Shown here: positions 16,320-31,199 of the stretch, one piece after another
Layout: each line of letters begins with the position of its first letter
Numbering within the stretch: the first letter of the stretch is position 1
IMG/VR virus record: IMGVR_UViG_3300049138_000182
Span: 6,113-70,112 of that record
Strand: one strand, 5' to 3'
DNA: 64,000 nucleotides
Source of the DNA: a virus
The notes under the pieces: generated by a model
Databases searched by the model: none
What the model was told of the DNA's origin: nothing
Seen by the model: the letters and a program-made list of their open reading frames with translations, nothing else
Made by a program: the position numbers and the translations under genes

Positions 16320-16328
16320 TGCGTGCTG

Positions 16329-16499: not shown

Positions 16500-16557
16500 T
16501 GTTCCTCCTTTGGGCATGAAAAGCCGACCCCAGGTCGGGGCCGACACACACTGTGGA

Positions 16558-17544: not shown

Positions 17545-17610
17545 GACTGCTCCTTTAGGACGTGAAAAAGCCGGCCCCAGGTCGGAGCCGGCTAGTCAGT
17601 ACGTATGTGG

Positions 17611-17874: not shown

Positions 17875-17903
17875 GTGCTCCCTCTCTGTGTGGGAATTTC
17901 GGG

Positions 17904-18263
17904 CTATGACTCAGTCTCTGCTAGGTCTCGAATGGTTGCGGCGACTCCGAGCACCCGTGAGTGTGGGATGGTGACGCCTGAACCGGTGTGCTCGCCTCGT
18001 TGGTACAGGTCGAACCGGACGCCATCACGAGCCAGCTCGATCAGCGCGGACAGCCCTTCCTCCGCGTCGAGCTGGAAAATCTGGGGGGCGAAAAATGCCT
18101 CCCGCTTCAGTCCGGCCAGTAGATCGGTCAGCTTGTCCACCGTCGGTTTGTCGAGGATGAACCCCCAGTCTCCGACCTCTACCCAGAGAGCACCACGGCC
18201 GCTAAGGCGGGGGTCTGGGTCCAGCGTCATCATGTCGTCCGGCCCGAAAATTAGATCAGCCAT
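17904..18263 (-). CDS. hypothetical protein
   Basis: GAGG RBS. Confidence 0.6.
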   Translation of the reverse strand: MADLIFGPDDMMTLDPDPRLSGRGALWVEVGDWGFILDKPTVDKLTDLLAGLKREAFFAPQIFQLDAEEGLSALIELARDGVRFDLYQRGEHTGSGVTIPHSRVLGVAATIRDLAETES

Positions 18264-18293
18264 GGTCGCCTCGTGCTCGAATTCTAGGCTTCA

Positions 18294-18545
18294 CTACTTG
18301 CCGTTCAGTATCTCTTGAACAGCTTTCACTACATCGGATATCTCGGTAAGGCGATTCTCGTCTCCGTTTTCGGCCATGATCGTGTACCGGAAGGATTCCA
18401 CGAGAATCGATACGTATTTAGGCTTGTTGCAAGTTATGACTCTTATTTGGTGAACACAGCCTCTACTCCCTGGAATGTGCATGGTGAATAGCTGCGCGAC
18501 GTCGAACGCTTGCCTAAGCTCTCTGGCTCTACTGGGGATGCTCAT
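18294..18545 (-). CDS. hypothetical protein (lower GC)
   Basis: ORF with purine-rich leader. Confidence 0.5.
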   Translation of the reverse strand: MSIPSRARELRQAFDVAQLFTMHIPGSRGCVHQIRVITCNKPKYVSILVESFRYTIMAENGDENRLTEISDVVKAVQEILNGK

Positions 18546-18580
18546 CTTCTTCTCTCTTAGGCGAGGATGAATTTCGGGCC

Positions 18581-19084
18581 CTAGGCCGGCCGCTCTCCCG
18601 AGCACACGGGACACGGCTTGTCGTAGGCGTGCGGCTGGTCATCGGCCGGCATCGGAGCGACGCTGTAACCTTGGTGGCGCCAGGACTCCATGGCCGCCTG
18701 GGCGTTCTCGACCTTGTGGCCCAAAGTCGAGTTGTTGCGGACGTGCACGACACCCTTGAACTGCTCGGTTGCCATAGCCTCTAGCTCCTGCTTCTCGTCG
18801 GCGATCTTTTCGAGCTCCGCGGCGTACGCCGCGGTCACCTTGTTGTGCGCCTGCTGCCAGCGCTTCATCAGCTCCAGGAGCAGGACCGTACGGGCATCGG
18901 GGTCTAGCTGGTCGTCACGGTAGGGGTTGCAGGCGTCGCAGCCTGCCCCCTTCCACGTCTTGCGGCTGATCTCGGCGTGGGAGCCGTTCTCAGCGGCCGG
19001 CTTGACGGTCATGCCCTGCTCGATCGCCGAGACCAGGCGATCGGTGAACCCTTCGATATCGGCGTGAACGATCTTCTGTGTCAT
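18581..19084 (-). CDS. hypothetical protein
   Basis: GGAGG RBS, ATGA overlap, two CxxC motifs. Confidence 0.6.
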   Translation of the reverse strand: MTQKIVHADIEGFTDRLVSAIEQGMTVKPAAENGSHAEISRKTWKGAGCDACNPYRDDQLDPDARTVLLLELMKRWQQAHNKVTAAYAAELEKIADEKQELEAMATEQFKGVVHVRNNSTLGHKVENAQAAMESWRHQGYSVAPMPADDQPHAYDKPCPVCSGERPA

Positions 19085-19521
19085 GCGTCGTCCTCCCCTG
19101 TGTCCTCGCCCATGGCGCCCTGGAACACGGCTGCCTCGTCCTCCTTGATCAAAGCCTGAAGCAAGTTGCGGGCCGTCTCATTCAGGGCGTAGGTAACAGC
19201 GTTAGTGACCTCGTGCCATTCGAAACGGCCACCGACTTCTAGGTCAGCAGCGTACAAAGCAAGGTCCGTGATGATCTGCCAACGCTTATGAGTGTCGGCG
19301 GGGATGCACTCGTCGGCAACCTCGTTGACAGCCTCAAACAACTCGTCCTCATCGGACGTAGCGAAGAACCGGCCCCGGTACTCGGCGTACCTCTGTGCGA
19401 TACCGGCAAGAAACACTCCGCCCGGAGATTCGGCGCTGTCAGGGTCAGAGATATTCTCGTCGTTCAACTTCTTCACGAGCACGTACGGGTGATAACCCTT
19501 GATGATGTCTTCGTGGATCAT
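19081..19521 (-). CDS. acidic helical protein (possible Ocr-like DNA mimic)
   Basis: GGAGG RBS; very D/E-rich, EVADECIP. Confidence 0.5.
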   Translation of the reverse strand: MIHEDIIKGYHPYVLVKKLNDENISDPDSAESPGGVFLAGIAQRYAEYRGRFFATSDEDELFEAVNEVADECIPADTHKRWQIITDLALYAADLEVGGRFEWHEVTNAVTYALNETARNLLQALIKEDEAAVFQGAMGEDTGEDDA

Positions 19522-19585
19522 GATTTCCTCCAGATTTCAGGCGTTGTGTAATTTGTTTGGTGGTGTGTGGCTAAGACCAGGCAGA

Positions 19586-19774
19586 TTATCCGATGTTCGT
19601 GAGTCGACTGTCCACTAGTACATAAAACAGGACTCTCCGCAGCTCACGCGCGACGTCGGGGTGTACAGTCATACCCTGCCTATTCCCCATGGGGTCACGC
19701 ACGGTAAAAGTGACGTTTCCGTCTTTCCCTATTTCAGCAGTAGCCAGCGCGCGAGGGTTGGGCGTGTCGCTCAT
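19586..19774 (-). CDS. small hypothetical protein
   Basis: GAAGG RBS. Confidence 0.5.
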   Translation of the reverse strand: MSDTPNPRALATAEIGKDGNVTFTVRDPMGNRQGMTVHPDVARELRRVLFYVLVDSRLTNIG

Positions 19775-20035
19775 TCTCTTACCTTCCGATTTGTTGAGCC
19801 GAATTTTTGGGCCCATCTCTGAGTCCTAGCCGACATCGATACCGACACCCCATAGAGCAGGGTATGGGTACCGGGCCGGCTAGGACTCGTCGTCGTCCTC
19901 GCCGTCGACCTCGTCGGGGTACATCCACGACTCGACTTCGAGTGTCTCTCTTTCCTCTGTCGCCGCTCGCTCGTCGTACAGGTCGGGATTGCCGATGAAA
20001 TACTCAGACATTGAGCTGTCCTTTTCTTGGCTTGA

Positions 20036-20566
20036 TCAGTGGGACATCGGGGAGTGTTCCCCGTCGTTGTTCTCGGGGCACTCGGCGCTGTCGTCCTCGC
20101 CGTACCACACCCCCGCGAAATTCGGGTGGACGTCTTTCTCGCAGTGACGGCATGTCTTGACGTTCATACCGGCATACCACTCTTCGCACTTCTCCACGAA
20201 GGGGCGCATTGCGTTAGGAAGTTCGATCTTGCCGGTAGCGAGGTCCCGAACGCCGATGTTCAAGTCACCTTCAGGGCCGAAGCCCTTTACCAGGATCTGA
20301 GACGTACCGGGCTGCCAGATGAATTCGACCTCTGCGAGCTCGTAGCGATAGACGACAGCGCCGTCACTGTCACGGCTGAAGAGGTAGCGTCGTGCGTCGC
20401 ACTCGCCGTTAGCGTGGCGTGTCTCGTACAGCGGCTTGCCATTGAGACTGTCCGCAGTAGTTGTCAGGACCTGGACCCCGGCACCCTTGATCTCTTGGCT
20501 GCACCAGCCGCACGTGTAGTTGCCAGCACTCAGCGGCTTGGTCCAGGGGTAGTCAATCTGAAGCAT
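20036..20566 (-). CDS. hypothetical Cys/His-containing protein
   Basis: CCCACACAAGGAAG leader; CGWC, CRHC. Confidence 0.6.
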   Translation of the reverse strand: MLQIDYPWTKPLSAGNYTCGWCSQEIKGAGVQVLTTTADSLNGKPLYETRHANGECDARRYLFSRDSDGAVVYRYELAEVEFIWQPGTSQILVKGFGPEGDLNIGVRDLATGKIELPNAMRPFVEKCEEWYAGMNVKTCRHCEKDVHPNFAGVWYGEDDSAECPENNDGEHSPMSH

Positions 20567-20670
20567 GGTTGTGTCTTCCTTGTGTGGGTTGCCCGAATTT
20601 CGGGCCCAAGCTGACATCCATGCCGCCAGACTCCCCTAGGTCTGGCGGCATGGGGCCGGCTAGGACCGGG

Positions 20671-20985
20671 CTAGCTGTTCTCGACTACGTCCTGGTAGTA
20701 GTGCTCGCCGAGCTCGCGCCGGTCGATGTTGCTGAGCATCTCGCTGAACAACAAGCCCGTGACGCTGCCGTAGTCGTCGGCCAGCCCGCCAGCCTCTTCC
20801 TTGATGAAGTCAACGATGCTTTGGCCAACCGCTTCGTAGTAGTAGGCCGGCTCGTGGTTCCCGGACCGGTCCTCCCAGTCAAACCCCTCATTGTGCAGCG
20901 CGTCACGAGTCGCTTGGTGCGCCCCGTTGTAGCCAGCCTCGACGTTGTCAAGGATCTTGGTAACTTCGCCGGTGTCCATGATCAT
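20671..20985 (-). CDS. acidic hypothetical protein
   Basis: AAGGA RBS. Confidence 0.6.
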   Translation of the reverse strand: MIMDTGEVTKILDNVEAGYNGAHQATRDALHNEGFDWEDRSGNHEPAYYYEAVGQSIVDFIKEEAGGLADDYGSVTGLLFSEMLSNIDRRELGEHYYQDVVENS

Positions 20986-21121
20986 GTCCTTGTCTCGTGG
21001 TGCTCGTAGGGTATCCGCCCTGACCGACAGGGGCAGGGAGGATGCAGCCAGACCTAGCTGACTCCCCGAGACTCCCGGCACCGGCCAAATTTCGGGCCAG
21101 CACGGGAGACCAGGGAGCCGG

Positions 21122-21394
21122 CTAGCTCAGTGCGCCAGCGTTGATGAGGGTGAACAGGCTCTCCGCATATTCGCGGTTGTGGATCTCCGAGCTGTAGGAG
21201 TCCTCGCCGCCCTCCTCCTTTTTGATCACGTAGACGACGCTCGGCTCTTCCAAGTCCGGGAAGAGCGCCGGTAGCTCGAAGGCCAGTAGGTACAGGACTA
21301 CGTCAGCGCCCCGCGAACACCGCTCCGTGCGAAAGGTGATAGCTGGGTTGACGTCGTCCGCCGTGAACCATTCGATCTTGCCGATTGCTGCCAT
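21122..21394 (-). CDS. hypothetical protein
   Basis: CCCACATAAGAGAGG leader. Confidence 0.55.
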   Translation of the reverse strand: MAAIGKIEWFTADDVNPAITFRTERCSRGADVVLYLLAFELPALFPDLEEPSVVYVIKKEEGGEDSYSSEIHNREYAESLFTLINAGALS

Positions 21395-21431
21395 GGTCTT
21401 ACCTCTCTTATGTGGGTGGAAATTCGGGCCG

Positions 21432-21755
21432 CTAGCGCTTTGGCATGCGGTCCATCTCGGATCGGATGTACCGGATCAGGCCGTCAAGCTTCGCCTTACG
21501 TTTGATGACCATGTGTGAGACCGTGTCACTGTGATCGTCCACGGGATAGCGCGTGACGTCCCAATCCCATGGGATCGTGAGATCGGGCTCTAACCCGTCC
21601 GTAGTGGTCGATGCGACCGTGATAATCCATCCGTGCCTACGAATGAAGAGCACGTAGCAGGACCCGCCGAGGTTCTCTAGCACAGCCGGAATTCCGGCGA
21701 GATTGAGATCCCAGAGGACAGAGTCATACTGCTGTCTCAGTTGTTCATAGAACAC
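21432..21755 (-). CDS. hypothetical protein (N-terminus similar to 26177-26761)
   Basis: GIPAVLENLGGSC versus GIPVVVEQTGGFC. Confidence 0.55.
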   Translation of the reverse strand: MFYEQLRQQYDSVLWDLNLAGIPAVLENLGGSCYVLFIRRHGWIITVASTTTDGLEPDLTIPWDWDVTRYPVDDHSDTVSHMVIKRKAKLDGLIRYIRSEMDRMPKR

Positions 21756-21775
21756 TTGCTTGCCTCTCTCGTCGG

Positions 21776-22384
21776 CTAGTTCTCTAGATGCCAGGTCGAA
21801 TTTTCGGCGTGACGCTTGGCGCTGCGTAGGGTGCGGTGGTATGACGCGAACAGATGGATTGGCTTAGTCCGACAGGGAGTGATCCCACGGAAGTCACGAA
21901 GTTGCCACGGCCTTAGAGGATTGGCGAAGGGTCGGAATTGAACTGTGACCATGGCATTGATCGCGGGCCGATCTGCGACATAGTGCAGACCCAGCCGTCT
22001 ACGCTGCCATACCAGCGGCGACACCCTAGCCGTCGGCCATTCCTCCCAGATGATCGAGCGGATGTAGTCGTTATCAACGAGGTATGGCGACGTGTAGTCG
22101 CCTTCTAAGTCGGTGTCGTCGAGAACACCGATTGCGCAACTAGAGTCGATAACTTCAGCGCCCTCGCAGGAGTACCCCTCGTGCTCAGGACATGCCCGAT
22201 AAATAACGTACTCCCATGCGCGGTAATCGCCAGCCGCAAATTTGGCGATATCCGAAGCGTCGTAACAGTCGTACTCGCGCGGGTTGTGATCGTAGTCCTC
22301 TTCGATTCGAACCCGGTACGGCGTGTCTCGGTTCATGAGCTTTCGGCGCTTCTCAGTTACTGCGGTGAATCGCACGTAGGTCAC
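21776..22384 (-). CDS. hypothetical protein
   Basis: CCCACACAAGGAAGG leader. Confidence 0.6.
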   Translation of the reverse strand: MTYVRFTAVTEKRRKLMNRDTPYRVRIEEDYDHNPREYDCYDASDIAKFAAGDYRAWEYVIYRACPEHEGYSCEGAEVIDSSCAIGVLDDTDLEGDYTSPYLVDNDYIRSIIWEEWPTARVSPLVWQRRRLGLHYVADRPAINAMVTVQFRPFANPLRPWQLRDFRGITPCRTKPIHLFASYHRTLRSAKRHAENSTWHLEN

Positions 22385-22479
22385 GGGCTGACCCTTCCTT
22401 GTGTGGGTGTGACTGCACGGTCATAGGAGGGAGCCCGATGCCCCTTTTAATCGGGCTCCCAGCTAAAAACGGGCAGGCG

Positions 22480-22770
22480 CTAGGCGGCCTTCACCCGTAC
22501 GGGTTCCGTAAGTTCCCTGTAGAACTCATCGGCCCGAAGCTTGACCAGCGCATCGGCCATCTCGGCGCATTCGTCGCCTCCCCTGTCGAGAAGCAACATC
22601 AGGAACACCCGTAGGTCCCTGGTCTTGGCCTTCACAGCGATCCGGTAGCCCGCGGCGTCCGTACCGGTCCCGAGCTTCTCGGCTAGCCGGCCTCGCGCTT
22701 CCATGTAAGCGATAACGCCGATCAGTTCCGTAACGTGTAGGTCGGCAAGCTGCCGTACGTCTGCGCGCAT
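22480..22770 (-). CDS. hypothetical protein
   Basis: CCCACACAAGAAAGG leader. Confidence 0.55.
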   Translation of the reverse strand: MRADVRQLADLHVTELIGVIAYMEARGRLAEKLGTGTDAAGYRIAVKAKTRDLRVFLMLLLDRGGDECAEMADALVKLRADEFYRELTEPVRVKAA

Positions 22771-22834
22771 TGGGTGGTGCCTTTCTTGTGTGGGATACAA
22801 GAAAGGGCCCGAGAAATCGGGCCCTAGGATGTTG

Positions 22835-23236
22835 CTAAGAGAACGTCACTTTGAGGTGATAGGACCGACGGGGCCCGAGCATCCACGTGTCGTAATTGAT
22901 CACGCGACCGTTATCAGGTCTCGTCTTCCCGTCAGGGTTAGTCGGGAAAGGATGCAGGCGGATCGATCCTTTACCTACACCGGACACTTCTTTAGCGACA
23001 TCGATCGACCACCCTGCTACGTAGTACGGGGTAACCGTCCTGCTGTCGTCCAAGAGGTAGATTGACTTCAGGGGATACTTGAATATCTCGATGTGCGGAT
23101 CGTGGATCTGGACGCAGTTAATCACAGTCTCCGTGTCATACATCTCCCCTTCCCCGAAACCTTCATTTCGGTTGAATTCACGGTCATCCAGCGCGACCGT
23201 GAATTTGAAGGGGCGCATGGGGGTGTCCTTGGGCAT
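22835..23236 (-). CDS. hypothetical protein
   Basis: Leader motif; lies downstream of hammerhead 1. Confidence 0.55.
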   Translation of the reverse strand: MPKDTPMRPFKFTVALDDREFNRNEGFGEGEMYDTETVINCVQIHDPHIEIFKYPLKSIYLLDDSRTVTPYYVAGWSIDVAKEVSGVGKGSIRLHPFPTNPDGKTRPDNGRVINYDTWMLGPRRSYHLKVTFS

Positions 23237-23269
23237 GACGAAATCGGCCTTTCGCTTGTGTGGGGTGTG

Positions 23270-23343
23270 CGGCTTGCCATCATCAGGGGACAGGTAGCCA
23301 ACCAGTGTCCCGACGGGCCCGAAATTCGGGCCCGTTTCGGCTA
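23270..23343 (-). ncRNA. type II hammerhead ribozyme 1
   Basis: GCC-GAAAC-GGGCCC(GAATTTC)GGGCCC-GTC-GGGACA..TGTCCC-CTGATGA-T-GGC; loop I TGGCT can pair with 3' tail AGCCG. Confidence 0.9.
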
Positions 23344-23868
23344 CGCCCAGTCTTTCGGCAGGATGCCCTTGCCCTTACCGCTAAGCCATTCGTCTAATTC
23401 GGTGAACGTCTCGACGAGGTCCAGCTTGTGGCAGGCGATGAGTGTCATCGTGTCGGGCTTGTTGCTGGCGAACAGCTCTTGCAAGGCTTCGGATGCGTTG
23501 CGCATTACGGCTATAGCCTTATGGGGGTTGAAAATCTCCTCCCAGAGCCATCGCCCGCCACCGATGGTGTAGTAACCATCGGCATCGGGCTCGCAAATCT
23601 CGGGCTCGTAGTTGTCGAGGTCGTGATACTGGCGCTCATCGTGGATGAGCTTGACTCCGTCCCACGTTAACTGCATGCCGTCGTAGGGGTCAGCCTGATG
23701 CGCGGCGTTGAGATCACGGGCGACCCTTTCGGCTACCTCTCGGGTGAAGTATGGGACTACGTAGCCATTCTTACCGGCTGAGCGTCCCGAAATCCGGGCC
23801 GGATAGGGCCCTAACGCGTCCTCGAATCCAACGGTGGTCTCTACCCACTGCGGTGTTTCGTCGGTCAT
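23341..23868 (-). CDS. hypothetical protein, paralog family A
   Basis: PYFTREVAERV...EPDADGYYTIG shared with 25747 and 26848 genes. Confidence 0.65.
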   Translation of the reverse strand: MTDETPQWVETTVGFEDALGPYPARISGRSAGKNGYVVPYFTREVAERVARDLNAAHQADPYDGMQLTWDGVKLIHDERQYHDLDNYEPEICEPDADGYYTIGGGRWLWEEIFNPHKAIAVMRNASEALQELFASNKPDTMTLIACHKLDLVETFTELDEWLSGKGKGILPKDWA

Positions 23869-23940
23869 GGTGGTGTCTCCTCTTGTGTTTTCCAGGCCCG
23901 TAACCAGGTCAGTTACGGGGTATCCAGCGTCGCGAATCCC

Positions 23941-24651
23941 CTAGAGGTACGAGTCACACCATGCACTGAGACCAGGGCGCCATTCAGGACCGTTAGGCCA
24001 GTTGGCGCGGTAGATTCGGCTCGTGTCGTACAGGTACACGTGGGTGCGGCTGACTAGGAGAAAGCCGCATGCTTCGTTCTCGACGTTGACGAACTCGTAG
24101 TTCGCAAGTCCATCGTCTCCGCTGTACGGCCGGATACCGAACTCGTCAGCCCCAGCCATGAATGTCTGAGTGCCTAACTCGCTGGTGTAGCCGAAGGGCT
24201 CGCTTAGTGGTGTGGTGTCGTCCGGCTCATCGTCTTCGTCGTCGTCGGTGATGTGACATGCACGATCGAATTCGACTTCTAGCCACGCGATGAGCTCGGC
24301 CACGGTATCCGCGCGACCGTAGGACACGTGCATGATGTCTTGGTTGGATGCGTGCTCAAGGACAACCCCACGCCTAATGCACATGCTTGACAGCTCTGAA
24401 CGCTTGTCAGGCAGCCCGGACGTCCAATCATTTTCGACGTTGAGACGGGAGATGCTGTACTCCCAGCCAAGGAATTCGAATCGAATGAAGGCGATGAACG
24501 TAGGGGGGCCGTCCACGTGGGGATCTGGCGAGATGCTTTCGGTGATGTCCTTCTGTGCCTCACGTGACCAGTGGCGCCACTCATAGGTCATGGCCCTAAT
24601 GGCATCGAGAATGTCGCTGTACTCACGTTCGAAGTCTTCGACGGATGTCAT
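23941..24651 (-). CDS. acidic hypothetical protein
   Basis: AAAGGAG RBS. Confidence 0.6.
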   Translation of the reverse strand: MTSVEDFEREYSDILDAIRAMTYEWRHWSREAQKDITESISPDPHVDGPPTFIAFIRFEFLGWEYSISRLNVENDWTSGLPDKRSELSSMCIRRGVVLEHASNQDIMHVSYGRADTVAELIAWLEVEFDRACHITDDDEDDEPDDTTPLSEPFGYTSELGTQTFMAGADEFGIRPYSGDDGLANYEFVNVENEACGFLLVSRTHVYLYDTSRIYRANWPNGPEWRPGLSAWCDSYL

Positions 24652-24671
24652 AGACTCGGCTCCTTTCTGGC

Positions 24672-25079
24672 CTAGCTCCACTTGGTCACGGAGTTGAACG
24701 GCTTACCGTCACACGGGATACTCTCGAATTCGGCCGTGACGCGTACGGAGTAGTGTGTATCGCCGATCTTGTAGACGGCAGCACCACCGATGCCGAATGT
24801 CGAGAGGGACCATGTCAGGTCACGATCGGCGATTGACGAGAGGATGGCGCTTGCGTCCGTGCTCTCATCCATGCCGAGACAATCGGGCCGCTCGCCATTC
24901 TCCATAGCAGGCCGGCAGTGCTCACATGACTTGTCATGCTCGTTGGCAGCGCTCTCTTCTACGTCACGCGCCGCATCCCTAAGGAATTCGGCCACTTCCG
25001 TAACGCTCTTGGCGCACTGCACGAATTCATCGGGCAGGCCAACCGTGCCGATGTGATACCGAAGTGCGTTGTCTGTCAT
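24672..25079 (-). CDS. hypothetical protein
   Basis: CCCATACAAGGAAGG leader. Confidence 0.6.
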   Translation of the reverse strand: MTDNALRYHIGTVGLPDEFVQCAKSVTEVAEFLRDAARDVEESAANEHDKSCEHCRPAMENGERPDCLGMDESTDASAILSSIADRDLTWSLSTFGIGGAAVYKIGDTHYSVRVTAEFESIPCDGKPFNSVTKWS

Positions 25080-25110
25080 AGGGCACCTTCCTTGTATGGG
25101 TACTCTGAGC

Positions 25111-25172
25111 CGCTGAGCTCATTACAGGGTCGCTAGTCGATATCGGCTAGCGACCCCATGACGAAATCAGCG
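25111..25172 (-). ncRNA. conserved covarying hairpin motif, copy 1
   Basis: CGCTGA-TTTCGTCATG-GGGTCGCTAG..CTAGCGACCC-TGTAATGAGC-TCAGCG. Confidence 0.6.
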
Positions 25173-25697
25173 CGTGGGGTATGTGCACGCGAGCAAGATA
25201 AGGTCGTCGACCTCCTCACTCAGGTATCGGAACGTCTGCACCTGCTGCATCCAGGAGGGCAGATCGCGCGTGTCCTGCAGCCCATGCCAAGCGGCTCTCT
25301 GATCGTCCGTGGCAAAGCTTGTGTGCTGGGCATGCCCCTGGTTCAGCGTTTCCTTCGAAACGCTGGTAATCCGTTCCCGTGTCTGCTCTGGGTACAGGTG
25401 AGCATCGATGATGGCCACCACCCGATCAGCCGAAAGATCGGCTCCGAACGAGAGCAGCTCTCGATCGTCCTCGCTGCGGTACTCGTCTTCGTCGCGATAC
25501 CAGTTGACTAGCCATGTCTCCGTGCCGTCGGGACGTTCCCCATCTCCCGGTGTGATTCCGAGCAGTGCGTCATCTTCCAGCACGATCCACAGAACGGGGA
25601 TGTTGCTGTCTTTATTTTCGATGTACCACGGAATCTCTTCGGCCCGAATATCGTCCTCGTGTTCCAGCCGTGCGCGCATCGGCTCTAGCCACGTCAT
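25167..25697 (-). CDS. hypothetical protein, paralog family B
   Basis: C-terminal DDLILLACTYP shared with 26177 gene. Confidence 0.65.
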   Translation of the reverse strand: MTWLEPMRARLEHEDDIRAEEIPWYIENKDSNIPVLWIVLEDDALLGITPGDGERPDGTETWLVNWYRDEDEYRSEDDRELLSFGADLSADRVVAIIDAHLYPEQTRERITSVSKETLNQGHAQHTSFATDDQRAAWHGLQDTRDLPSWMQQVQTFRYLSEEVDDLILLACTYPTR

Positions 25698-25746
25698 GGG
25701 TGTACCTTCCTTGTGTGAGTACTCTGAGCTGAGCTCATCTGTTGCC

Positions 25747-26085
25747 TTAGGCGCTTGCCCTAGCGTCTGACCATGAATACCAATTCGCGCCGATGACGTA
25801 GAAGCCATCGGAATCGGGCTGGATCAGTTCCCCTCTATAGTCGTTTGACTCCACTGCTGGAATGATTTCGTAAAGGCGAATCGCGTCACCTTCCCACGTG
25901 AGACGGAATCCGCCGTCAGGATTGAGTGCGAAATCTTGGGCGTTGAGCACGTCAATAACTCGTGACGCAGTCTCACGAGTGAAGCGCGGAGTGACATATC
26001 CACCCCAATGGACATGCTCGATCATTTGTGCGGGGAACGTTTCGTCGATGTCCTCGTGCTTGACGTGTCCGTCGTACCACTGCAT
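25747..26085 (-). CDS. hypothetical protein, paralog family A
   Basis: PRFTRETASRV...QPDSDGFYVIG. Confidence 0.65.
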   Translation of the reverse strand: MQWYDGHVKHEDIDETFPAQMIEHVHWGGYVTPRFTRETASRVIDVLNAQDFALNPDGGFRLTWEGDAIRLYEIIPAVESNDYRGELIQPDSDGFYVIGANWYSWSDARASA

Positions 26086-26118
26086 GGGGTACACCTTCCT
26101 TGTGTGGGTACTCTGAGC

Positions 26119-26182
26119 CGCTGAGCTCATTACAGGGCAGCTAGACGAGATGCCGGCTAGCTGCCCCATGACGAAATCAGCG
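26119..26182 (-). ncRNA. conserved covarying hairpin motif, copy 2
   Basis: Same flanks as copy 1; inner stem GGGCAGCTAG/CTAGCTGCCC shows compensatory change. Confidence 0.6.
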
Positions 26183-26761
26183 CTCGCTTGTCTGACTCTT
26201 GTCCGGGTACGTGCAGGCCAGCAGAATGAGATCGTCGATTTGCTCGGGCGTGTACTGGTACAGACTCACGCGCGTGAGCCACTCGGGAACTGCCCGACTG
26301 TCCCTAAGGGAACCGAAGATCTGCGCCTTCTCGTGGAACCACCCTTTACGGTCAATCCGAAGCCTGCCGGGATTGAGCGTCTCCTCTGAAACACGGGTGA
26401 CTGTTGTTAGGCGTACCTCGGTTGAGTTGGTGTGCGCGCGAATCAGTGCAACGACCCGATCGGAATCAGCGTGCCAGTCCAGCACCGGAGGGTCGATGTC
26501 CTCACGGTCGGGATAGAAGCACACCAGCCACGTTCCGGGCCGGTATTTCTTTTCGTCGTTGTATTCACCGGGCGTGATACCGATGTATTCGGTGTGACCG
26601 TCGTTGAGGTAGACGGTAGCGACCATGCAGAATCCTCCGGTCTGTTCGACCACGACCGGAATACCGAGCTTGCGAAGGTGAGCTGTGATCGGGTCAAGAC
26701 CCTGATCCGTGGCTGCGCTCTTACAGACTTCCTCGTAAGAGCTCGGGGTGTTGTCAGTCAT
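26177..26761 (-). CDS. hypothetical protein, paralog family B
   Basis: GTWLVCFY...RVVALI...VSEETLN...IDDLILLACTYP. Confidence 0.65.
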   Translation of the reverse strand: MTDNTPSSYEEVCKSAATDQGLDPITAHLRKLGIPVVVEQTGGFCMVATVYLNDGHTEYIGITPGEYNDEKKYRPGTWLVCFYPDREDIDPPVLDWHADSDRVVALIRAHTNSTEVRLTTVTRVSEETLNPGRLRIDRKGWFHEKAQIFGSLRDSRAVPEWLTRVSLYQYTPEQIDDLILLACTYPDKSQTSER

Positions 26762-26784
26762 GCTGTGTCCTCTTGTGTGGGGTT

Positions 26785-26850
26785 TGGTCTGCCATCATCA
26801 GGCGCGTGTGACCATTCACGCGCGACGGGCCCTAGGGCCCGTTTCGGCTA
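26785..26850 (-). ncRNA. type II hammerhead ribozyme 2
   Basis: GCC-GAAAC-GGGCCCTAGGGCCC-GTC-GCGCGTG(AATGGTCA)CACGCGC-CTGATGA-T-GGC-AGACCA; pseudoknot TGGTC/GACCA. Confidence 0.9.
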
Positions 26851-27366
26851 GGGGTTGAGATCGAGAACACGCACCATGTCGAACGGAGAATCGTCTAGGC
26901 GCTCGGAACCGCCTAGGCATTCGGCGATCGTGTCAGGGTCCGGAGACCAGCCACAGGGGGCAAGTAGCCGCGCGTCGTTTCGCTTCAGCGCGTCTCTTAC
27001 CGCAGTCTCGACGCTTTCGGCGTCATGCTTGGGAACGATGACTACCGCTGTGAGAGCGATGATCTCGACCTCTTCCCAACCCCATGCATTGATCGCGTAC
27101 ATGTCGTCAGAATCCGGCTCGATGTGCACGGGTCCGTCGACGTCGCCCGTGATAACGCTGTCGTCAGACCAGCGCAGATACTGACCATTGCCATACGTCG
27201 CGTTCGATTCGTCGACGATACGCCTAGCCGTCTCGGCGTTGAATCGCGCCTTGACGGTGGTGTAGTTCGCCGCTCGCGTCTCACTGCCTACGAGAATTTC
27301 GGCGGGATACCACCTACGCTCTTCGCCGCTGTCGACGCTGACGAATCCCTTACGGTACTCAGTCAT
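26848..27366 (-). CDS. hypothetical protein, paralog family A
   Basis: ARFNAETARRI...EPDSDDMYAIN. Confidence 0.65.
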   Translation of the reverse strand: MTEYRKGFVSVDSGEERRWYPAEILVGSETRAANYTTVKARFNAETARRIVDESNATYGNGQYLRWSDDSVITGDVDGPVHIEPDSDDMYAINAWGWEEVEIIALTAVVIVPKHDAESVETAVRDALKRNDARLLAPCGWSPDPDTIAECLGGSERLDDSPFDMVRVLDLNP

Positions 27367-27448
27367 GGTGTGCCTCTCCTGTGTGGGTAGTCCTAGGCGT
27401 AGCGCACTAGGCCATGGCAAAGGGCCCGTGAAACTCACGGGCCCTTCA

Positions 27449-27757
27449 CTAAAGCCGTGCGAGTACAGACGCTAGATCGCGACCGTCAAAGAACGTCACT
27501 TCTGCGAAAGTCGCGAGATCGAATACTTTCCCAGTCTCGACCTTGTGCAATGACTGGTTGAATGATGCGTGCATGCCGGAACCGGGAAGTCCGAGCATGG
27601 AGCCGTTGGGAAGCTGGTAACCCTCGTACTTGACGTAGAGAGTTCCAAACTCCTTACTCTCCCAGATTCCGTACGCGTCTTGCCGACGGTCGGAACTGCG
27701 AGGTTTCGAAAGCGCCTTACCAATTCGCTTGTACGGGTCCATGTAACGGTCATGCAT
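27449..27757 (-). CDS. hypothetical protein
   Basis: CCCACACAAGAGAGAAAGG leader. Confidence 0.6.
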   Translation of the reverse strand: MHDRYMDPYKRIGKALSKPRSSDRRQDAYGIWESKEFGTLYVKYEGYQLPNGSMLGLPGSGMHASFNQSLHKVETGKVFDLATFAEVTFFDGRDLASVLARL

Positions 27758-27845
27758 GGTTGAGCCTTTCTCTCTTGTGTGGGTGACGTCAGTTCACTAC
27801 CGGGCCCGCATTCCCCGAATTTCGGGCCCGACTAGTCAGCTAAGG

Positions 27846-28235
27846 TCACTCCGCATCGCTGTTGTATTCCATTTCCTCTGTAAGTACATCGGGGGCGACT
27901 CTGTCCCAACCGGCTTGAGCGCCACGTTCCCCGCACTTACGTGCGTAGGTCTTAAGGCAACGAAGCATTTCGACGTTCTGGGCAGCGGTGCCTAGATCCT
28001 TGACTGTCTCGTCAGCGTCGAAATGCTGCGGACTAGACTTGACAACGCGAATTTCGGCGTCAATCTCTGCGAAGAGATCCGGAGTAACGGTCCCCGTTGA
28101 ATTGAGCCGGAGAAAGCCGATGTTGCTAGAGCTAATCCAGCCTGCTGCAATGCCCTTTGCAGTGCCGTCATAGATTGGCGTGTCGGTGCGCTTTGCACGA
28201 GCCACGTCAGCCATGATCAGATCGAGAGTATTCAT
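27846..28235 (-). CDS. hypothetical protein (weakly similar to 29327-29656)
   Basis: A..IA..W.S...RL...G.(V/I)T pattern. Confidence 0.55.
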   Translation of the reverse strand: MNTLDLIMADVARAKRTDTPIYDGTAKGIAAGWISSSNIGFLRLNSTGTVTPDLFAEIDAEIRVVKSSPQHFDADETVKDLGTAAQNVEMLRCLKTYARKCGERGAQAGWDRVAPDVLTEEMEYNSDAE

Positions 28236-28272
28236 AAATCGACACCTTCCGTGTGTAGGGAATGAGAACAGC

Positions 28273-28331
28273 ATTGATCTCATTACAGGGTCGCTAGCCG
28301 TGCCGGCTAGCGACCCAATGACAAGATCAAT
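28273..28331 (-). ncRNA. conserved covarying hairpin motif, copy 3
   Basis: ATTGATCTTGTCATT-GGGTCGCTAGCCG(GCA)CGGCTAGCGACCC-TGTAATGAGATCAAT; outer stem differs but still pairs. Confidence 0.6.
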
Positions 28332-28506
28332 CCCGCTTGTCGTACTTCCATGAGCCGAGCTTGTTACCGTTGCTGCAGCGAATCACGCCACCCGTATAAC
28401 CGTCGAACACGTCGCCCGTGATTTTCTTCAGAATTTCGGCGATCTCTCCGGAGTCGTGTGGGTCATCGAACGCCGAACCGGTTACTTCAAACTCAAGCTT
28501 GAACAT
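28327..28506 (-). CDS. small hypothetical protein (59 aa, MFKLEFEVTGSAF...)
   Basis: CCCACACAAGAGGA leader; too short for the ORF track. Confidence 0.6.
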   Translation of the reverse strand: MFKLEFEVTGSAFDDPHDSGEIAEILKKITGDVFDGYTGGVIRCSNGNKLGSWKYDKRD

Positions 28507-28529
28507 GCTGTGTCCTCTTGTGTGGGTTG

Positions 28530-28596
28530 CTGGTCTGCCATCATCAGGTATGCGCGACCAATCACATACGACGGGCCCTAGGGCCCGTTTCGGCTA
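28530..28596 (-). ncRNA. type II hammerhead ribozyme 3
   Basis: GCC-GAAAC-GGGCCCTAGGGCCC-GTC-GTATGTG(ATTGGTCG)CGCATAC-CTGATGA-T-GGC-AGACCAG. Confidence 0.9.
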
Positions 28597-28938
28597 TCCC
28601 GCCATGTGGCGGACTATCGCACCGGTTTCTGTCTTGCTCCGTACGCTGAAACTGTAAAGCGTGCCTGCCCCGAGGTAGTCGATTCCCTTACGCATAAGGG
28701 CAGCGAACCTACGGAATTCAGCAGTAGACGTGTCACATTCGATACGACACGCGTTGTTTCCGGAGGGGAAGAGTTTGACGTCCGCACCGACCGTGCGTGC
28801 GCCGATTTCGACAGCACGCATGACGCGCTGGATATCGGCACACGGGTGACAGAAAAAATCTTTTGGACCGGTTGGCTTCATTGGCTTACCACACAGACCG
28901 GAGTCGGTTTCGGACCACCTAATGTGTTTGCGTGCCAT
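28594..28938 (-). CDS. hypothetical protein with N-terminal H/C motif
   Basis: H...LCG...CHPC; AAAGG RBS. Confidence 0.6.
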   Translation of the reverse strand: MARKHIRWSETDSGLCGKPMKPTGPKDFFCHPCADIQRVMRAVEIGARTVGADVKLFPSGNNACRIECDTSTAEFRRFAALMRKGIDYLGAGTLYSFSVRSKTETGAIVRHMAG

Positions 28939-28956
28939 GGTGTTTACCTTTCTTTG

Positions 28957-29235
28957 CTAGACGAAAATCGGGCCCACGTAGAACCGATACCTAGCGCGTG
29001 CGTGGTATGCCCTTTCGAGCATGAGTAGGTAGCGCTCTTCGTGGAAATTCGGCTCTGACTGGTCGTATCGAATCGCGTCGTATGCGAGATAGGCGCACAC
29101 AGCACCGTTGATACGGAACTCAAAGCGCTCTCTGTCATCGTGGGCGTATATGCTCACGTGCGTGTCCCGAATGAACAGGCTGTAGATCCTTGTGAAGTCT
29201 TGCGGAGCCGCTAAGTACAGTTCGCATGTGTTCAT
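28957..29235 (-). CDS. hypothetical protein
   Basis: CCCACACAAGGAAAGG leader. Confidence 0.55.
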   Translation of the reverse strand: MNTCELYLAAPQDFTRIYSLFIRDTHVSIYAHDDRERFEFRINGAVCAYLAYDAIRYDQSEPNFHEERYLLMLERAYHARARYRFYVGPIFV

Positions 29236-29326
29236 CGTTCGACCTTTCCTTGTGTGGGTTTCGTCGGAACGCCCGTACGCCCGATCCCATGAGGAAATCG
29301 GGCGTACTAGCGAGGCTCACGAACAC

Positions 29327-29656
29327 CTAGGCCACGGTCAGCGATTCCCAGCCCTTCACAGGCTTACGCGACTTGGAACACCGACTTACGTACATGTCGA
29401 GTGCCATAAGCTGCGCGTATGCGTATTCGGAGAATCCGGGCGTAGCCGAGATGTCATCGGCTATGCGCGAAATTTCGGCGCGTAGGAGAGTCGCGTCCGT
29501 GATTCCGCCACACATGGCCAGTCTGTAGAGCTCGCTTCTCTGGCCGCTCTTCCACGTGTGCGCGATGTGCCGTGCTACGGGGTGCGTGACGTACTTACGC
29601 TTGCCGCAAATGACCTGATCGATCTGCGTACCGATGACAATCGCCTGAGTACTCAT
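29327..29656 (-). CDS. hypothetical protein
   Basis: Leader motif variant with AAAGG. Confidence 0.55.
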   Translation of the reverse strand: MSTQAIVIGTQIDQVICGKRKYVTHPVARHIAHTWKSGQRSELYRLAMCGGITDATLLRAEISRIADDISATPGFSEYAYAQLMALDMYVSRCSKSRKPVKGWESLTVA

Positions 29657-29682
29657 GTGTTCGCCTTTCGTTGTGTGGATAT

Positions 29683-30084
29683 CTAGATCCACGCGTAACC
29701 ACGTGCGGGATTGTCGGCAGGGCAGGCAAAAACGGCATGGGCCGTCACGAGAACTGGCTCGTTGTCGGACGTTGTGGTGAACGTGCCTGCCCTGTCAGGT
29801 GCCGGGTTATAGGTGACGCGCTCCCTACCCGTGATGTCAGGAGCACTGTTCACGGCTTCCACCACACCGACAACCCAAGCGTGAACAGTTCGCTTTCCAA
29901 GTCGGTGTGACCGGTCACGCCCCTTGGCCGAAACCTTGAAGGTCACGTCGCTAAGGCTCACGTCTGTGAGGTTCGCGATAACACGCCCGGAATTCGGGCC
30001 CGTCATTGCTGTGACTGACCAAAGGTGCGTGTGCAAGTTGAAGTGCACACGCACACGCTCGCCTATGAGTGCGTGTACGCTCAT
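29683..30084 (-). CDS. conserved phage hypothetical protein
   Basis: VHFNLH..WSV...GRVIA...FKVS..GR...VHAWVVG...YNP, a pattern I recall from other phage proteins. Confidence 0.65.
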   Translation of the reverse strand: MSVHALIGERVRVHFNLHTHLWSVTAMTGPNSGRVIANLTDVSLSDVTFKVSAKGRDRSHRLGKRTVHAWVVGVVEAVNSAPDITGRERVTYNPAPDRAGTFTTTSDNEPVLVTAHAVFACPADNPARGYAWI

Positions 30085-30172
30085 GTGTTCGCCTTTCTCT
30101 TACTTGTGTGGGTTTCGCAGGAATGGCAATGTGCCCGATTCTCAGTATCGAAAATCGGGAACAAAGCCAGCG

Positions 30173-30472
30173 CTACGAACGCTTGATTTCGCCTGTCTCA
30201 TGCCATGACGTGAACGCGTCACGCAGATTGATACGGCATGAGCTCTTTCCTTCGGCGTAGTTAAGAGCGTGCTCCCAGTAGGCCAGCGCGAATTCGTCAG
30301 CCTGATAGGAGTCGTGTTCTCCTCCCCTGTCTTGCCATCCCCATACGTAGGTAAGTGCTTGTTCGTACAGGCGTTGCGGCTCACCTCGCTTGAATTCAGG
30401 CAACGCGCTGGCACGCTTGCGAAGTTCCGTGCCCTTTTTTGCGTTCCTTGTGATGCGTTCTACGGCATCCAT
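30173..30472 (-). CDS. hypothetical protein
   Basis: CACACAAGAAAGG leader. Confidence 0.6.
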   Translation of the reverse strand: MDAVERITRNAKKGTELRKRASALPEFKRGEPQRLYEQALTYVWGWQDRGGEHDSYQADEFALAYWEHALNYAEGKSSCRINLRDAFTSWHETGEIKRS

Positions 30473-30654
30473 GTAATGGCCTTTCTTGTGTGGTGGGTTT
30501 CGTGACTCACGAATTAACCGAAGAGAACTTCACAGATGTCGTGAAACTCTGAGTATGAGATCAGACCACACGCGTACTCGTCGCGAACTTGCTGGTAAAC
30601 ATCAATCGCTGGCCTGCCGTACATACTGTTTCCTTTCCTCGGTTTCTGTCTAAG

Positions 30655-30718
30655 CCGTTCTAGCGGGATTCGAACCCTGTACGCCGAAATTCGGCGCGCA
30701 ACCGACTTGCCTAGAACG
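30655..30718 (-). ncRNA. tRNA-like structure (non-canonical)
   Basis: CGTTCTAG/CTAGAACG acceptor-like stem, GCAAGTCGGTTGC arm, GCGCCGAATTTCGGCGT arm, GGG-TTCGAAT-CCC T-arm; no CCA. Confidence 0.55.
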
Positions 30719-31199
30719 CGTGAGTAGTTACCCATGTGGTTAGGGACGCTACGCCCTTCCATGCTCACGGGCTGATCAGGCAATGCACCTTTGTTCTGAT
30801 ACAGATCTAACTGTTGTCAGGGGGGAACACATCCTGATCGCTTCGGATGACACGTTCGCCTTTTTCAGACCTGTTGCTGTAACACGAGCTAAGCACGCTC
30901 ATTCCGAAATGAATCGTTGTCCTCGACAGACAGGCGCGACTAATGCCATCCCCGATCACGTGCGTTGCCATGTCGCATTCATGGTTTGTCACGTGTCCGG
31001 TGATCTCTAGCGGGTGGTTCACACCATAGAGATACGCGCATTGCCAAGGAGATGCGCACCCTTGTCCCGTAGGACTCTTGCCCGATCGGTCGGGCCAATT
31101 CCCCAACGCTTAGCGTGCGTTGGAACGAAACCGGCTTACACGATGCCCACCTACGTACGCCGCAATACGTAGGCCGAAAATCGGGCGCAAACCCTAAGG

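What the first reader, a model, noticed from the sequence alone, without database searches (positions are those of the whole stretch)
25083..28331. Unrecognised covarying intergenic RNA motif in three copies
Seen: 25111-25172, 26119-26182 and 28273-28331 share GUCAU(G/U)GGG...CUAG..CUAG...CCCUGUAAUGAG. The inner stem shows compensatory swaps (GGGUCGCUAG/CUAGCGACCC versus GGGCAGCUAG/CUAGCUGCCC), and copy 3 has a re-paired outer stem. Like the hammerheads, each copy overlaps a stop codon (TGA) and precedes the next leader. Inference: a processing signal (RNase III-type), a protein-binding site, or an unknown self-cleaving RNA occupying the same slot as the hammerheads.
Basis: partly seen in the sequence, partly recalled or inferred. 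Interest (0 to 1): 0.7.

Follow-up and report, generated by a model that had tools for sequence, protein, structure and literature searches.

The report
Conserved long RNA hairpins between phage genes
Three near-identical 26-base-pair RNA hairpins, each starting at a gene's stop codon, sit between small early genes of an uncultured soil phage in the same kind of gap where it also carries self-cutting hammerhead RNAs, so they most likely mark where a host enzyme cuts or stabilises the long early message, though no cutting has been shown.

Summary
Three copies of one element lie on the minus (coding) strand at 25111-25172, 26119-26182 and 28273-28331. The shared pattern occurs 3 times in the window and in 0 of 100 shuffles.

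Each copy folds into one long hairpin of 26 base pairs. 97.4% of cells pair and 4 pairs change on both sides. Fold z-scores are -4.2 to -6.8. The upstream gene's UGA stop lies in the 5' arm, always 4 nt before GUCAU.

No Rfam family matches at E<=10. The helix is almost continuous, with only 1x1 mismatches, so it has no room for a ribozyme core. It has no U-tract and does not cover the next ribosome-binding site.

My best reading (about 0.45) is a T7-like RNase III-type processing or stability signal on a polycistronic early mRNA, alternating with three type II hammerheads.

Rivals are an uncut stabiliser, a U-less terminator, a protein operator or a recombination linker.

I found the element only in this phage lineage. 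It was absent from all other sequence I could search. Two unchecked notes of this scan describe similar hairpin cassettes in hammerhead slots in other phages. No RNA data exist.

The parts
25111..25172 (-). Copy 1 of the hairpin (26 bp, loop AUAU). It lies between the 176-aa ORF 25167-25697 and the 135-aa ORF 24672-25079.
   Evidence: MFE -44.8, z -4.68; 94.5 bits with R2
26119..26182 (-). Copy 2 of the hairpin, with the inner stem swapped UC/GA to CA/UG. It lies between the 194-aa ORF 26177-26761 and the 112-aa ORF 25747-26085.
   Evidence: MFE -48.8, z -4.18; 90.3 bits
28273..28331 (-). Copy 3 of the hairpin, with the outer stem re-paired and GUCAUU instead of GUCAUG. It lies between the 59-aa ORF 28327-28506 and the 129-aa ORF 27846-28235.
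   Evidence: MFE -53.7, z -6.75; 82.4 bits
25167..25169 (-). UGA stop of the upstream ORF, inside the 5' arm of copy 1 (UGA + 4 nt + GUCAU).
26177..26179 (-). UGA stop of the upstream ORF, inside the 5' arm of copy 2, in the same register.
28327..28329 (-). UGA stop of the upstream ORF, inside the 5' arm of copy 3, in the same register.
25086..25107 (-). Leader after copy 1 (CUCAGAGUACCCAUACAAGGAAGG). It is the start-associated CCCACACAAGG-type sequence plus Shine-Dalgarno, and is not paired with the hairpin.
26783..26849 (-). Type II hammerhead in the neighbouring gap. It starts at the UAG stop.
   Evidence: 61 bits, gathering score 37
28529..28595 (-). Type II hammerhead in the gap just upstream of the gene that precedes copy 3.
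   Evidence: 53.1 bits
23267..23342 (-). Third type II hammerhead. It scores below Rfam's gathering score but has a complete core.
   Evidence: 31.7 bits, E 0.0029; sequence

Best explanation
The three elements are sense-strand RNA hairpins that punctuate a long leftward early transcript of a temperate, Streptomyces-type soil phage.

Each hairpin begins at the upstream gene's UGA stop and ends about 45 nt before the next start codon. It forms about 29 stacked positions: 26 pairs and three 1x1 mismatches. A G-C-rich upper stem sits on a conserved A-U/G.U-rich central box (UYGUCAUK opposite UGUAAUGA) with an invariant C.A mismatch near the middle of the helix.

I propose that the host's RNase III, or another double-strand-specific enzyme, binds this two-turn helix and cuts in or near the central box. 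That would separate the cistrons, as the type II hammerheads in neighbouring gaps do by self-cleavage. It would set the 3' end of the upstream message and the 5' leader of the downstream one.

Shown here: the copies, the fold, the compensatory changes, the stop-codon register, the position in the operon, and the absence of a U-tract and of any Rfam match.

Inferred: transcription as one unit, recognition by RNase III, the place of cleavage, and any effect on stability.
For: (1) The helix has 26 bp in all three copies, with 97.4% of cells paired and 4 pairs changed on both sides. Folds are far below shuffles, with z-scores of -4.18 to -6.75.

(2) An idealised E. coli RNase III substrate is 22 bp, two A-helical turns. 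Mismatches or loops at the target can restrict cutting to one strand and leave a stabilising 3' hairpin. T7's ~7000-nt polycistronic early precursor carries five such signals (passages read in PMC3867540).

(3) The slot is the same as for the hammerheads. Motif gaps are 87, 91 and 91 nt. Hammerhead gaps are 86, 87 and 122 nt. Both kinds of element start at the stop codon and are followed by the same leader type. Clustered hammerheads flanking single genes in prophages were read as cutting long phage transcripts into gene-length mRNAs (passages in PMC3088659).

(4) The conserved block starts exactly at the base of the outer stem. The upstream genes there are only 37% identical (copies 1 and 2) or unrelated (copy 3).

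(5) It is not a canonical terminator. No terminator-like or promoter-like site was found at or after the copies, while the same scan finds a U-tract terminator at 22825-22804. One search shows hairpins followed by U runs at 17545-17610, 16500-16557 and 16252-16328.

(6) The Shine-Dalgarno of the next gene stays unpaired with the hairpin.

(7) The sense strand folds better than the antisense in 2 of 3 copies: -40.3 vs -35.2 and -44.2 vs -36.9 kcal/mol.

(8) RNase III is present in an actinobacterial control genome (Corynebacterium glutamicum). The nearest cultured phages by portal protein infect Streptomyces (58% identity).
Against: There is no cleavage evidence of any kind. No RNA sequencing run was listed.

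Only three copies exist, and the four double changes are about two events. Templated mutation in a DNA quasi-palindrome could also produce them.

Copy 1 folds equally well on the antisense strand (-39.3 vs -39.6). Of the 6 transition-type non-Watson-Crick positions, 4 are G.U on the sense strand and 2 on the antisense, which is not significant.

A cut in both strands would leave neither product with a protective hairpin. This differs from the hammerhead products and from T7 single-strand cuts.

The sequence rules of RNase III in the unknown host are not known. The phage record encodes no RNase III domain (PF14622; the record is 71% complete).

Long hairpins are common in this genome. The copies rank only 9th, 17th and 22nd among minus-strand 80-nt windows by stability, so a long hairpin alone is not special here.

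No homologue outside this lineage could be found to test conservation.
Confidence: 0.45

Rival explanations
1. The hairpin is an uncut RNA structure. It would act as a barrier to 3' exonucleases, or as a block to Rho loading on the untranslated gap. It would set different stabilities for operon segments without being a cleavage site.
For: Nearly every gap of 60 nt or more in the operon holds some stable hairpin, such as the GGGCCC hairpins at 27367-27448 and 27758-27845 and the long UAG-CCGG hairpins at 19775-20035, 20567-20670 and 20986-21121. The helix is very stable, -39 to -44 kcal/mol for the element alone.
Against: This does not explain the strict conservation of the weak, wobble-rich central box and the C.A mismatch while the G-C-rich stems are free to covary. 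A barrier needs an endonucleolytic or terminated 3' end nearby, and none is evident.
Confidence: 0.2
2. The hairpin is a transcription terminator or attenuator without a U-tract, of the kind reported for the early region of Streptomyces phage phiC31.
For: It is a strong hairpin directly after a stop codon. The nearest cultured relatives are Streptomyces phages. [quoted passage not shown] I saw it only as reference 24 of PMC3993855, and the paper itself is not held.
Against: No U run follows any copy. The same operon uses hairpins with U-tracts elsewhere. No promoter-like site follows the copies to restart transcription. Purified mycobacterial RNA polymerase did not terminate at hairpins lacking U-tracts, even with NusA and NusG, and the authors raise contaminating nucleases as a possible explanation of earlier reports (abstract and passages of PMC3993855).
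Confidence: 0.1
3. The element is a binding site for a phage or host protein. It could act as an RNA operator. [quoted passage not shown]
For: The box GUCAUKGGG / CCCUGUAAUGAG is conserved in sequence, not only in pairing. The element sits just upstream of a start-associated-type leader. Cluster K ESAS likewise are imperfect inverted repeats with a 4-13 bp spacer upstream of the SAS (passages of PMC3203893).
Against: Within one genome the stems change on both sides so that pairing, not sequence, is kept. A dimeric DNA-binding protein would not demand that. The two half-sites differ at 4-5 of 9 box positions, in the same way in all copies. No candidate binding protein was identified: the ten neighbouring ORFs have no Pfam match, and one has only a PHROG of unknown function.
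Confidence: 0.12
4. The element is a conserved linker at which homologous recombination shuffles gene cassettes. Its spread and conservation would then be due to DNA-level exchange rather than an RNA function. This is not exclusive of the other readings.
For: Contigs of related phages in three other soil runs break synteny at the borders of intergenic elements. One contig joins 27367 to 28268, that is, just after copy 3, with a different leader. Another keeps 26018-26172 (leader plus copy 2 from the G of GUCAU) with different DNA on both sides. Others break at 26785 (hammerhead end) and at 27764/27838. The flanking genes of the three copies are unrelated, apart from one diverged paralogue pair.
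Against: A linker needs identity, not a hairpin. This does not explain the compensatory changes, the fixed stop-codon register, or why unrelated structured elements (hammerheads) fill the equivalent gaps.
Confidence: 0.08
5. The element is a self-cleaving RNA, either a new class or a derivative of the hammerhead. It reads GUC, then a closed stem, then CUG-UA-AUGAG, where a type II hammerhead has GUC, stem I, then CUGAUGA.
For: It occupies the same slot as three hammerheads, and new ribozyme classes have been found next to known ones (recalled: Weinberg et al. 2015). The 3' flank resembles the hammerhead's catalytic strand in 11 of 16 positions with a 2-nt insertion, by my reading.
Against: There is no GAAA and no stem III. 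The CUGAUGA box is interrupted. No hammerhead, twister, twister-sister, pistol, hatchet, HDV-like or hairpin-ribozyme model matches at E<=10. The conserved letters are base-paired in a nearly continuous helix, and the only unpaired positions are three 1x1 mismatches. No free-standing hammerhead enzyme strand with arms matching the motif occurs in the window.
Confidence: 0.05

Closest known systems
RNase III processing signals of the phage T7 early region (five sites in the ~7000-nt polycistronic precursor)
   Same: They are repeated hairpins between cistrons of a phage early operon. The helix is about two turns or more. Irregularities lie near the presumed target. The supposed result is gene-length mRNAs with defined ends (PMC3867540, passages read).
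   Different: Cleavage is shown for T7 and not here. T7 sites have larger internal loops, while here there are only 1x1 mismatches and G.U pairs. Here the stop codon is built into the helix at a fixed register, and the elements alternate with ribozymes. There is no sequence similarity, and the host is probably an actinomycete.
Clustered hammerhead ribozymes flanking single genes in prophages (Perreault et al. 2011, PMC3088659)
   Same: The genomic role and slot are the same. Three type II hammerheads lie in the same operon, and an ArdA gene lies in the operon as in the Agrobacterium example (passages).
   Different: The motif lacks the hammerhead core and stem III and matches no hammerhead model. 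If it is cut, a protein must do it.
Start-associated sequences and extended SAS (ESAS) of cluster K mycobacteriophages and cluster EF Microbacterium phages (PMC3203893, PMC7302621)
   Same: Both are imperfect inverted repeats with a short variable spacer, lying immediately upstream of a highly conserved start-associated leader, before a subset of non-structural genes, all in one orientation. Their function is unknown (passages).
   Different: ESAS arms are 17 bp and are described as sequence consensus. Here the arms are about 29 nt and show compensatory change. The stop codon is part of the element. The leader sequence is different (CCCACACAAGG type). I could not see the ESAS figures, so I made no sequence comparison.
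Poly-U-less terminators of the phiC31 early region (Ingham et al. 1995)
   Same: These are stem-loops without U tails between early genes of a Streptomyces phage.
   Different: I know that paper only by its title in a reference list. Later work found that actinobacterial RNA polymerase needs a U-tract (PMC3993855). This phage has U-tract terminators elsewhere.
Bacillus phage SP82 early-mRNA processing sites cut by B. subtilis RNase III (recalled: Panganiban and Whiteley 1983; not looked up here)
   Same: As I recall, these are a few nearly identical stem-loop sites spaced along a phage early transcript.
   Different: This rests on recall only. The host phylum is different, and no sequence comparison was made.

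Membership tests
Hammerhead ribozyme (Rfam clan CL00010) | Conserved core CUGAUGA ... GAAA with three stems around the cleavage triplet | tested here: not met
   The motif reads CUG-UA-AUGAG, and has no GAAA and no stem III. No hammerhead model matches the three sites at E<=10, while the true hammerheads score 61 and 53 bits in the same search.
Other small self-cleaving ribozymes in Rfam 15 (twister, twister-sister, pistol, hatchet, HDV-like, hairpin, and others) | A match to the family covariance model, with conserved unpaired core nucleotides | tested here: not met
   No match at E<=10 in 24000-30000. The conserved letters are paired.
RNase III processing signal (bacterial, T7-early type) | Double-helical segment of about 20-22 bp or more | tested here: met
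   26 pairs over 29 stacked positions in all three copies. The 22-bp idealised substrate is described in PMC3867540.
RNase III processing signal (bacterial, T7-early type) | Location between cistrons of a polycistronic transcript | tested here: inconclusive
   The copies lie between same-strand ORFs with no promoter-like or terminator-like site between them. The transcript itself was not observed.
RNase III processing signal (bacterial, T7-early type) | Site-specific cleavage by RNase III, with 5'-phosphate and 3'-OH ends | not testable with these tools
   No RNA run holds the stretch. This needs an experiment.
Canonical intrinsic terminator | G+C-rich hairpin followed at once by a U-tract | tested here: not met
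   The 3' arm is followed by GCGGCUCAGAG (copies 1 and 2) or GCUGUUCUCA (copy 3). The terminator scan reports nothing at the copies.
ESAS of cluster K mycobacteriophages | Pair of imperfect 17-bp inverted repeats, spacer mostly 4-13 bp, immediately upstream of a 13-bp start-associated sequence | tested here: inconclusive
   The layout is alike: inverted repeat, 4-6 nt loop, then a conserved leader. Arm length and sequences differ. The ESAS consensus figures are not held.
Integron attC site (considered because of the cassette-like gene array) | Core sites RYYYAAC and GTTRRRY at the ends of the imperfect repeat (recalled definition) | tested here: not met
   No GTT-purine core occurs on either strand of the three copies, by direct reading. 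No integron-type integrase was examined.

The most novel reading that the evidence does not exclude
The element is a minimal self-cleaving RNA descended from the type II hammerhead (GUC, closed stem I, then an interrupted CUG-UA-AUGAG strand, with stem III lost). It would cut at or near GUC^A without any protein. That would make it a new ribozyme architecture hidden in a near-perfect helix.
Probability: 0.04. Interest if true: 0.85.

Novelty: new variant of a known kind. Interest (0 to 1): 0.4.

Why it matters
If the hairpins are cut by a host double-strand RNase, this phage uses two unrelated devices in equivalent gaps of one operon to split its early message into single genes: a ribozyme and a protein-dependent hairpin.

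That would give a natural side-by-side system for asking why phages use ribozymes at all. Possible answers include constitutive versus host- or translation-dependent cutting, and different end chemistry in a phage that, according to unchecked notes of this scan, also carries Ro60, Y RNAs and RNA-repair genes.

It would also offer a testable function for the long-unexplained inverted repeats in front of start-associated sequences in actinobacteriophages.

The stop codon built into the helix means a terminating ribosome must melt the base of the element, so cutting could be coupled to translation.

If the hairpins are only stabilisers or linkers, the finding is ordinary.

Tried and rejected
**Known RNA family.** Rfam at gathering scores over the whole window, at E<=10 over 24000-30000 and at E<=1 over 13000-24000 found only the hammerheads and a tRNA. 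The other rows (ROSE_2, ceN65, mir-277; E 2-9) lie elsewhere and are chance-level.

**Homologues elsewhere.**
- The exact two-box pattern gave 0 hits in IMG/VR, 3 in metagenome contigs and 5 in species-representative genomes.
- All 8 hits score at most 13.9 bits with model R2. The two I read have no hairpin, so I take them as chance.
- The leader pattern gave 0 hits in IMG/VR.
- Model R2 was run over 18 IMG/VR loci that encode relatives of the 194-aa upstream protein. The best score was 16.1 bits, E 0.14, a G+C-rich palindrome.
- Model R2 was run over 100 of the 115 hammerhead-bearing IMG/VR loci, L030-L129. There was one hit of 16.1 bits, E 0.62, in a divergent-promoter gap of an A+T-rich phage, which I rejected on reading it. 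L130-L144 were not searched.
- Model R2 over four whole Streptomyces phage genomes (BRock, Alone3, pSt2308, GiJojo) found nothing. These genomes have no type II hammerhead either.

**Protein routes.**
- The 176-aa protein has 2 relatives in 5.8 billion sequences: one at 93% identity on a JGI contig, and one at 45% identity in a Nonomuraea genome.
- The search for related loci with that protein found none.
- tblastn against phages found only distant Brevundimonas jumbo-phage hits for the 59-aa protein and nothing for the 194-aa protein.

**RNA evidence.** No RNA holder was listed.

The only CUGAUGA cores joined to a hammerhead-like context in the window belong to the three cis hammerheads. None has arms matching the motif.

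**Promoter reading of TGTAAT.** No sigma-70-like site was scored at the copies.

**Read-through, selenocysteine or a mini-ORF.** The extensions after UGA end after 10-15 codons in different frames. The AUG in the 5' arm is AUU in copy 3. The AUG in the 3' arm is in frame with the next gene in only 2 of 3 copies (my reading).

**Phage-encoded RNase III.** No PF14622 match was found in the record. PF00636 and dsrm were not searched.

**L004 hairpin scan**. It was uninformative at 69% G+C.

**Supplements.** Supplements of the papers were not opened. The ESAS alignments (figures and supplements of PMC3203893) could bear on the comparison.

Full report
**What is there.**
The genes of this part of the window run on the minus strand. 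On that strand three stretches share GUCAU(G/U)GGG, three variable letters, CUAG, a short loop region, CUAG, three variable letters, then CCCUGUAAUGAG. The pattern matches at 25127-25162, 26135-26172 and 28288-28322 and in none of 100 shuffles. The whole 70-kb virus record has no further copy, by pattern or by covariance model.

**The fold.**
- Each copy folds into one long hairpin (-44.8, -48.8 and -53.7 kcal/mol for about 110 nt; z -4.68, -4.18, -6.75).
- On alignment A2 the structure has 26 pairs, and 97.4% of 78 cells pair. When the 3' partners are slid, 28-47% pair.
- Four pairs change on both sides. Two are adjacent pairs in the inner stem of copy 2. Two are adjacent pairs in the outer stem of copy 3. 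4 of 500 shuffles reach the observed covariation.
- In copy 3 the U.C mismatch of the outer stem also becomes U-A.
- Three positions are 1x1 mismatches. Only the C.A near the middle of the helix is the same in all copies.
- Around it lies a 9-position box (UYGUCAUK opposite UGUAAUGA) made of A-U, G.U and U.G pairs, conserved in sequence. The G-C-rich stem above it and the outer stem below it are the parts that covary.

With three sequences at 86% column identity this is about two independent compensatory events. That is suggestive, not proof.

**Strand.**
The element alone folds better as sense RNA in copies 2 and 3 (-40.3 vs -35.2; -44.2 vs -36.9 kcal/mol) but equally in copy 1 (-39.3 vs -39.6). 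Six of the seven non-Watson-Crick positions are transition-type. Four are G.U on the sense strand and two on the antisense. The strand argument is therefore weak. The better argument for RNA is that pairing, not sequence, is kept within one genome.

**Setting.**
- The upstream ORF's stop codon is UGA in all three cases. It lies in the 5' arm, always four letters before GUCAU.
- The conserved block begins exactly at the base of the outer stem. Upstream of it, copies 1 and 2 follow paralogous genes that are only 37% identical with different C-terminal tails (alignment). Copy 3 follows an unrelated 59-aa gene.
- The downstream genes are unrelated.
- After the hairpin comes CUCAGAG, then a CCCACACAAGG-type leader with the Shine-Dalgarno. 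These do not pair with the hairpin.
- None of the ten neighbouring ORFs has a Pfam match, and one matches a PHROG of unknown function.
- The operon also holds an ArdA antirestriction gene.
- The phage has an SPP1-type portal and a terminase. Its portal is 57-58% identical to those of Streptomyces phages of the BRock group. A relative of one upstream protein lies in a Nonomuraea genome. The host is therefore probably an actinomycete.

**The gaps of the operon** (from my own gene calls).
- Three gaps hold type II hammerheads: 26783-26849 at 61 bits, 28529-28595 at 53 bits, and 23267-23342 at 31.7 bits, below the gathering score but with a full core. Each starts at a UAG stop.
- Three gaps hold the motif.
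- Others hold GGGCCC hairpins.
- Three more (19775-20035, 20567-20670, 20986-21121) hold other long hairpins of about 22-29 pairs whose 5' arm contains a UAG stop in the word CUAGCCGG.
- CUAGCCGG occurs 8 times in the window against 2.2 expected (0 of 100 shuffles reach 8). Six of these are on the minus strand in early gaps, including the apex of motif copies 2 and 3.
- Motif gaps are 87, 91 and 91 nt. Hammerhead gaps are 86, 87 and 122 nt.

The motif is thus one type among several structured modules that all begin at the stop codon and end before the leader. Long hairpins are common in this genome: the copies rank 9th, 17th and 22nd by stability among minus-strand 80-nt windows.

**What it is not.**
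- No Rfam family matches at E<=10.
- It lacks the hammerhead's GAAA and stem III, and its CUGAUGA-like strand is interrupted.
- It has no U-tract. The terminator scan finds nothing at the copies, while it finds a canonical terminator at 22825-22804. Hairpins with U runs close other units of the operon.
- No promoter-like site follows the copies.
- No free hammerhead enzyme strand that could cut the motif in trans exists in the window.

**Relatives.**
Outside this lineage I found nothing. Details are in Tried and rejected.

Within the lineage, contigs of three other soil runs match parts of 24600-29000 at mostly 90-99% identity.
- One contig covers copy 1 completely. Among the differences that were printed, it shows a single one inside the element (25162, which turns GUCAU into UUCAU). 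12 of its 47 differences were not printed, so this is a lower bound.
- Another run's contig is identical over 25108-25168.
- Synteny breaks fall at the edges of the intergenic modules. One contig joins 27367 to 28268, that is, copy 3 followed by a different leader and a different gene.
- One contig keeps 26018-26172 with other DNA on both sides, yet again has the letters UGA four places before GUCAU. I could not check its reading frame.
- Others break at the end of a hammerhead (26785) and on both sides of the 27758-27845 hairpin gap.

The modules therefore behave as conserved joints between shuffled genes.

**Mechanism.**
The anatomy fits a double-strand-specific processing signal best.
- The helix exceeds the 22 bp of an idealised RNase III substrate.
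- Mismatches at the target can limit cutting to one strand and leave a stabilising 3' hairpin.
- T7 uses five such signals in its early polycistronic precursor (PMC3867540, passages).
- The weak, conserved box lies near the middle of the helix, with about 12 stacked positions below it and 16 above. A dimeric enzyme centred on a two-turn helix would cut there. This placement is my inference.
- Hammerheads flanking single genes in prophages have been read the same way (PMC3088659, passages).

I put 0.45 on RNase III-type processing. The rest is spread over an uncut stabiliser (0.2), a protein operator (0.12), a U-less terminator (0.1), a recombination linker (0.08, not exclusive) and a ribozyme (0.05).

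Against the favoured reading:
- There are no RNA data.
- The host enzyme's rules are unknown.
- A double cut would leave unprotected ends.
- U-less terminators have been reported for phiC31 (title seen only in a reference list), although purified mycobacterial polymerase needs a U-tract (PMC3993855).

**Comparison and novelty.**
In function the closest known things are the T7 early RNase III signals. In layout the closest are the inverted repeats (ESAS) upstream of start-associated sequences in cluster K mycobacteriophages and cluster EF Microbacterium phages, whose role is unknown.

The element is not a member of any curated RNA family. Its special traits are the stop codon at a fixed register inside the helix, the conserved wobble-rich centre, and its alternation with hammerheads in one operon.

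Two unchecked notes of this scan describe hairpin cassettes in hammerhead slots in other phages, so the kind has been seen before on other DNA. I rate it a new variant of a known kind, of moderate interest, and worth a simple cleavage test.

Noticed in passing
window 19775-20035, 20567-20670, 20986-21121 (minus strand): Three other long hairpins of about 22-29 pairs sit in early gaps. Their 5' arm contains a UAG stop within CUAGCCGG. That word occurs 8 times in the window against 2.2 expected, 6 of them in minus-strand early gaps.
   Followed up: partly
window 13000-31000, minus-strand early operon: By my own gene calls, 22 of 34 early genes end in UAG, 8 in UGA and 4 in UAA. That is unusual for a roughly 60% G+C phage. 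Many of the UAG stops are the first letters of a hammerhead or hairpin (UAGCCG...).
   Followed up: no
window 23234-23245, 25157-25168, 26167-26178, 29288-29299 (minus strand): The 12-mer GAUUUCGUCAUG of the motif's 5' arm recurs exactly after the third hammerhead, where its AUG may be a start codon. It recurs with one change in the loop of the 29236-29326 hairpin. That makes 4 matches against 0.24 expected.
   Followed up: partly
window 25698-25746 (minus strand): This 49-nt gap has the motif's 3' arm and leader (AGAUGAGCUCAGC-UCAGAGUAC...) but no hairpin and no match to model R2. It may be a decayed copy, or it may show where a processed leader begins.
   Followed up: partly
window 23267-23342 (minus strand): A third type II hammerhead with a complete core scores 31.7 bits, below Rfam's gathering score of 37. 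Its stem III loop is the dispersed CCCGAAUUUCGGG word.
   Followed up: partly
Most are around 40% G+C. In all 25 that I printed it closes a type II hammerhead followed by a ribosome-binding site and a start codon.
   Followed up: partly
window 24600-29000 versus runs X2-X4: Related soil phages break synteny at the borders of the intergenic modules: 26785, 27367/28268, 27457-27462, 27764/27838 and 26018/26172. This points to gene shuffling at conserved joints.
   Followed up: partly
window 15748-16251 (minus strand): An ArdA antirestriction gene lies in the same early operon (Pfam PF07275, E 2.9e-10). It recalls the hammerhead-flanked ardA of an Agrobacterium prophage in PMC3088659.
   Followed up: no
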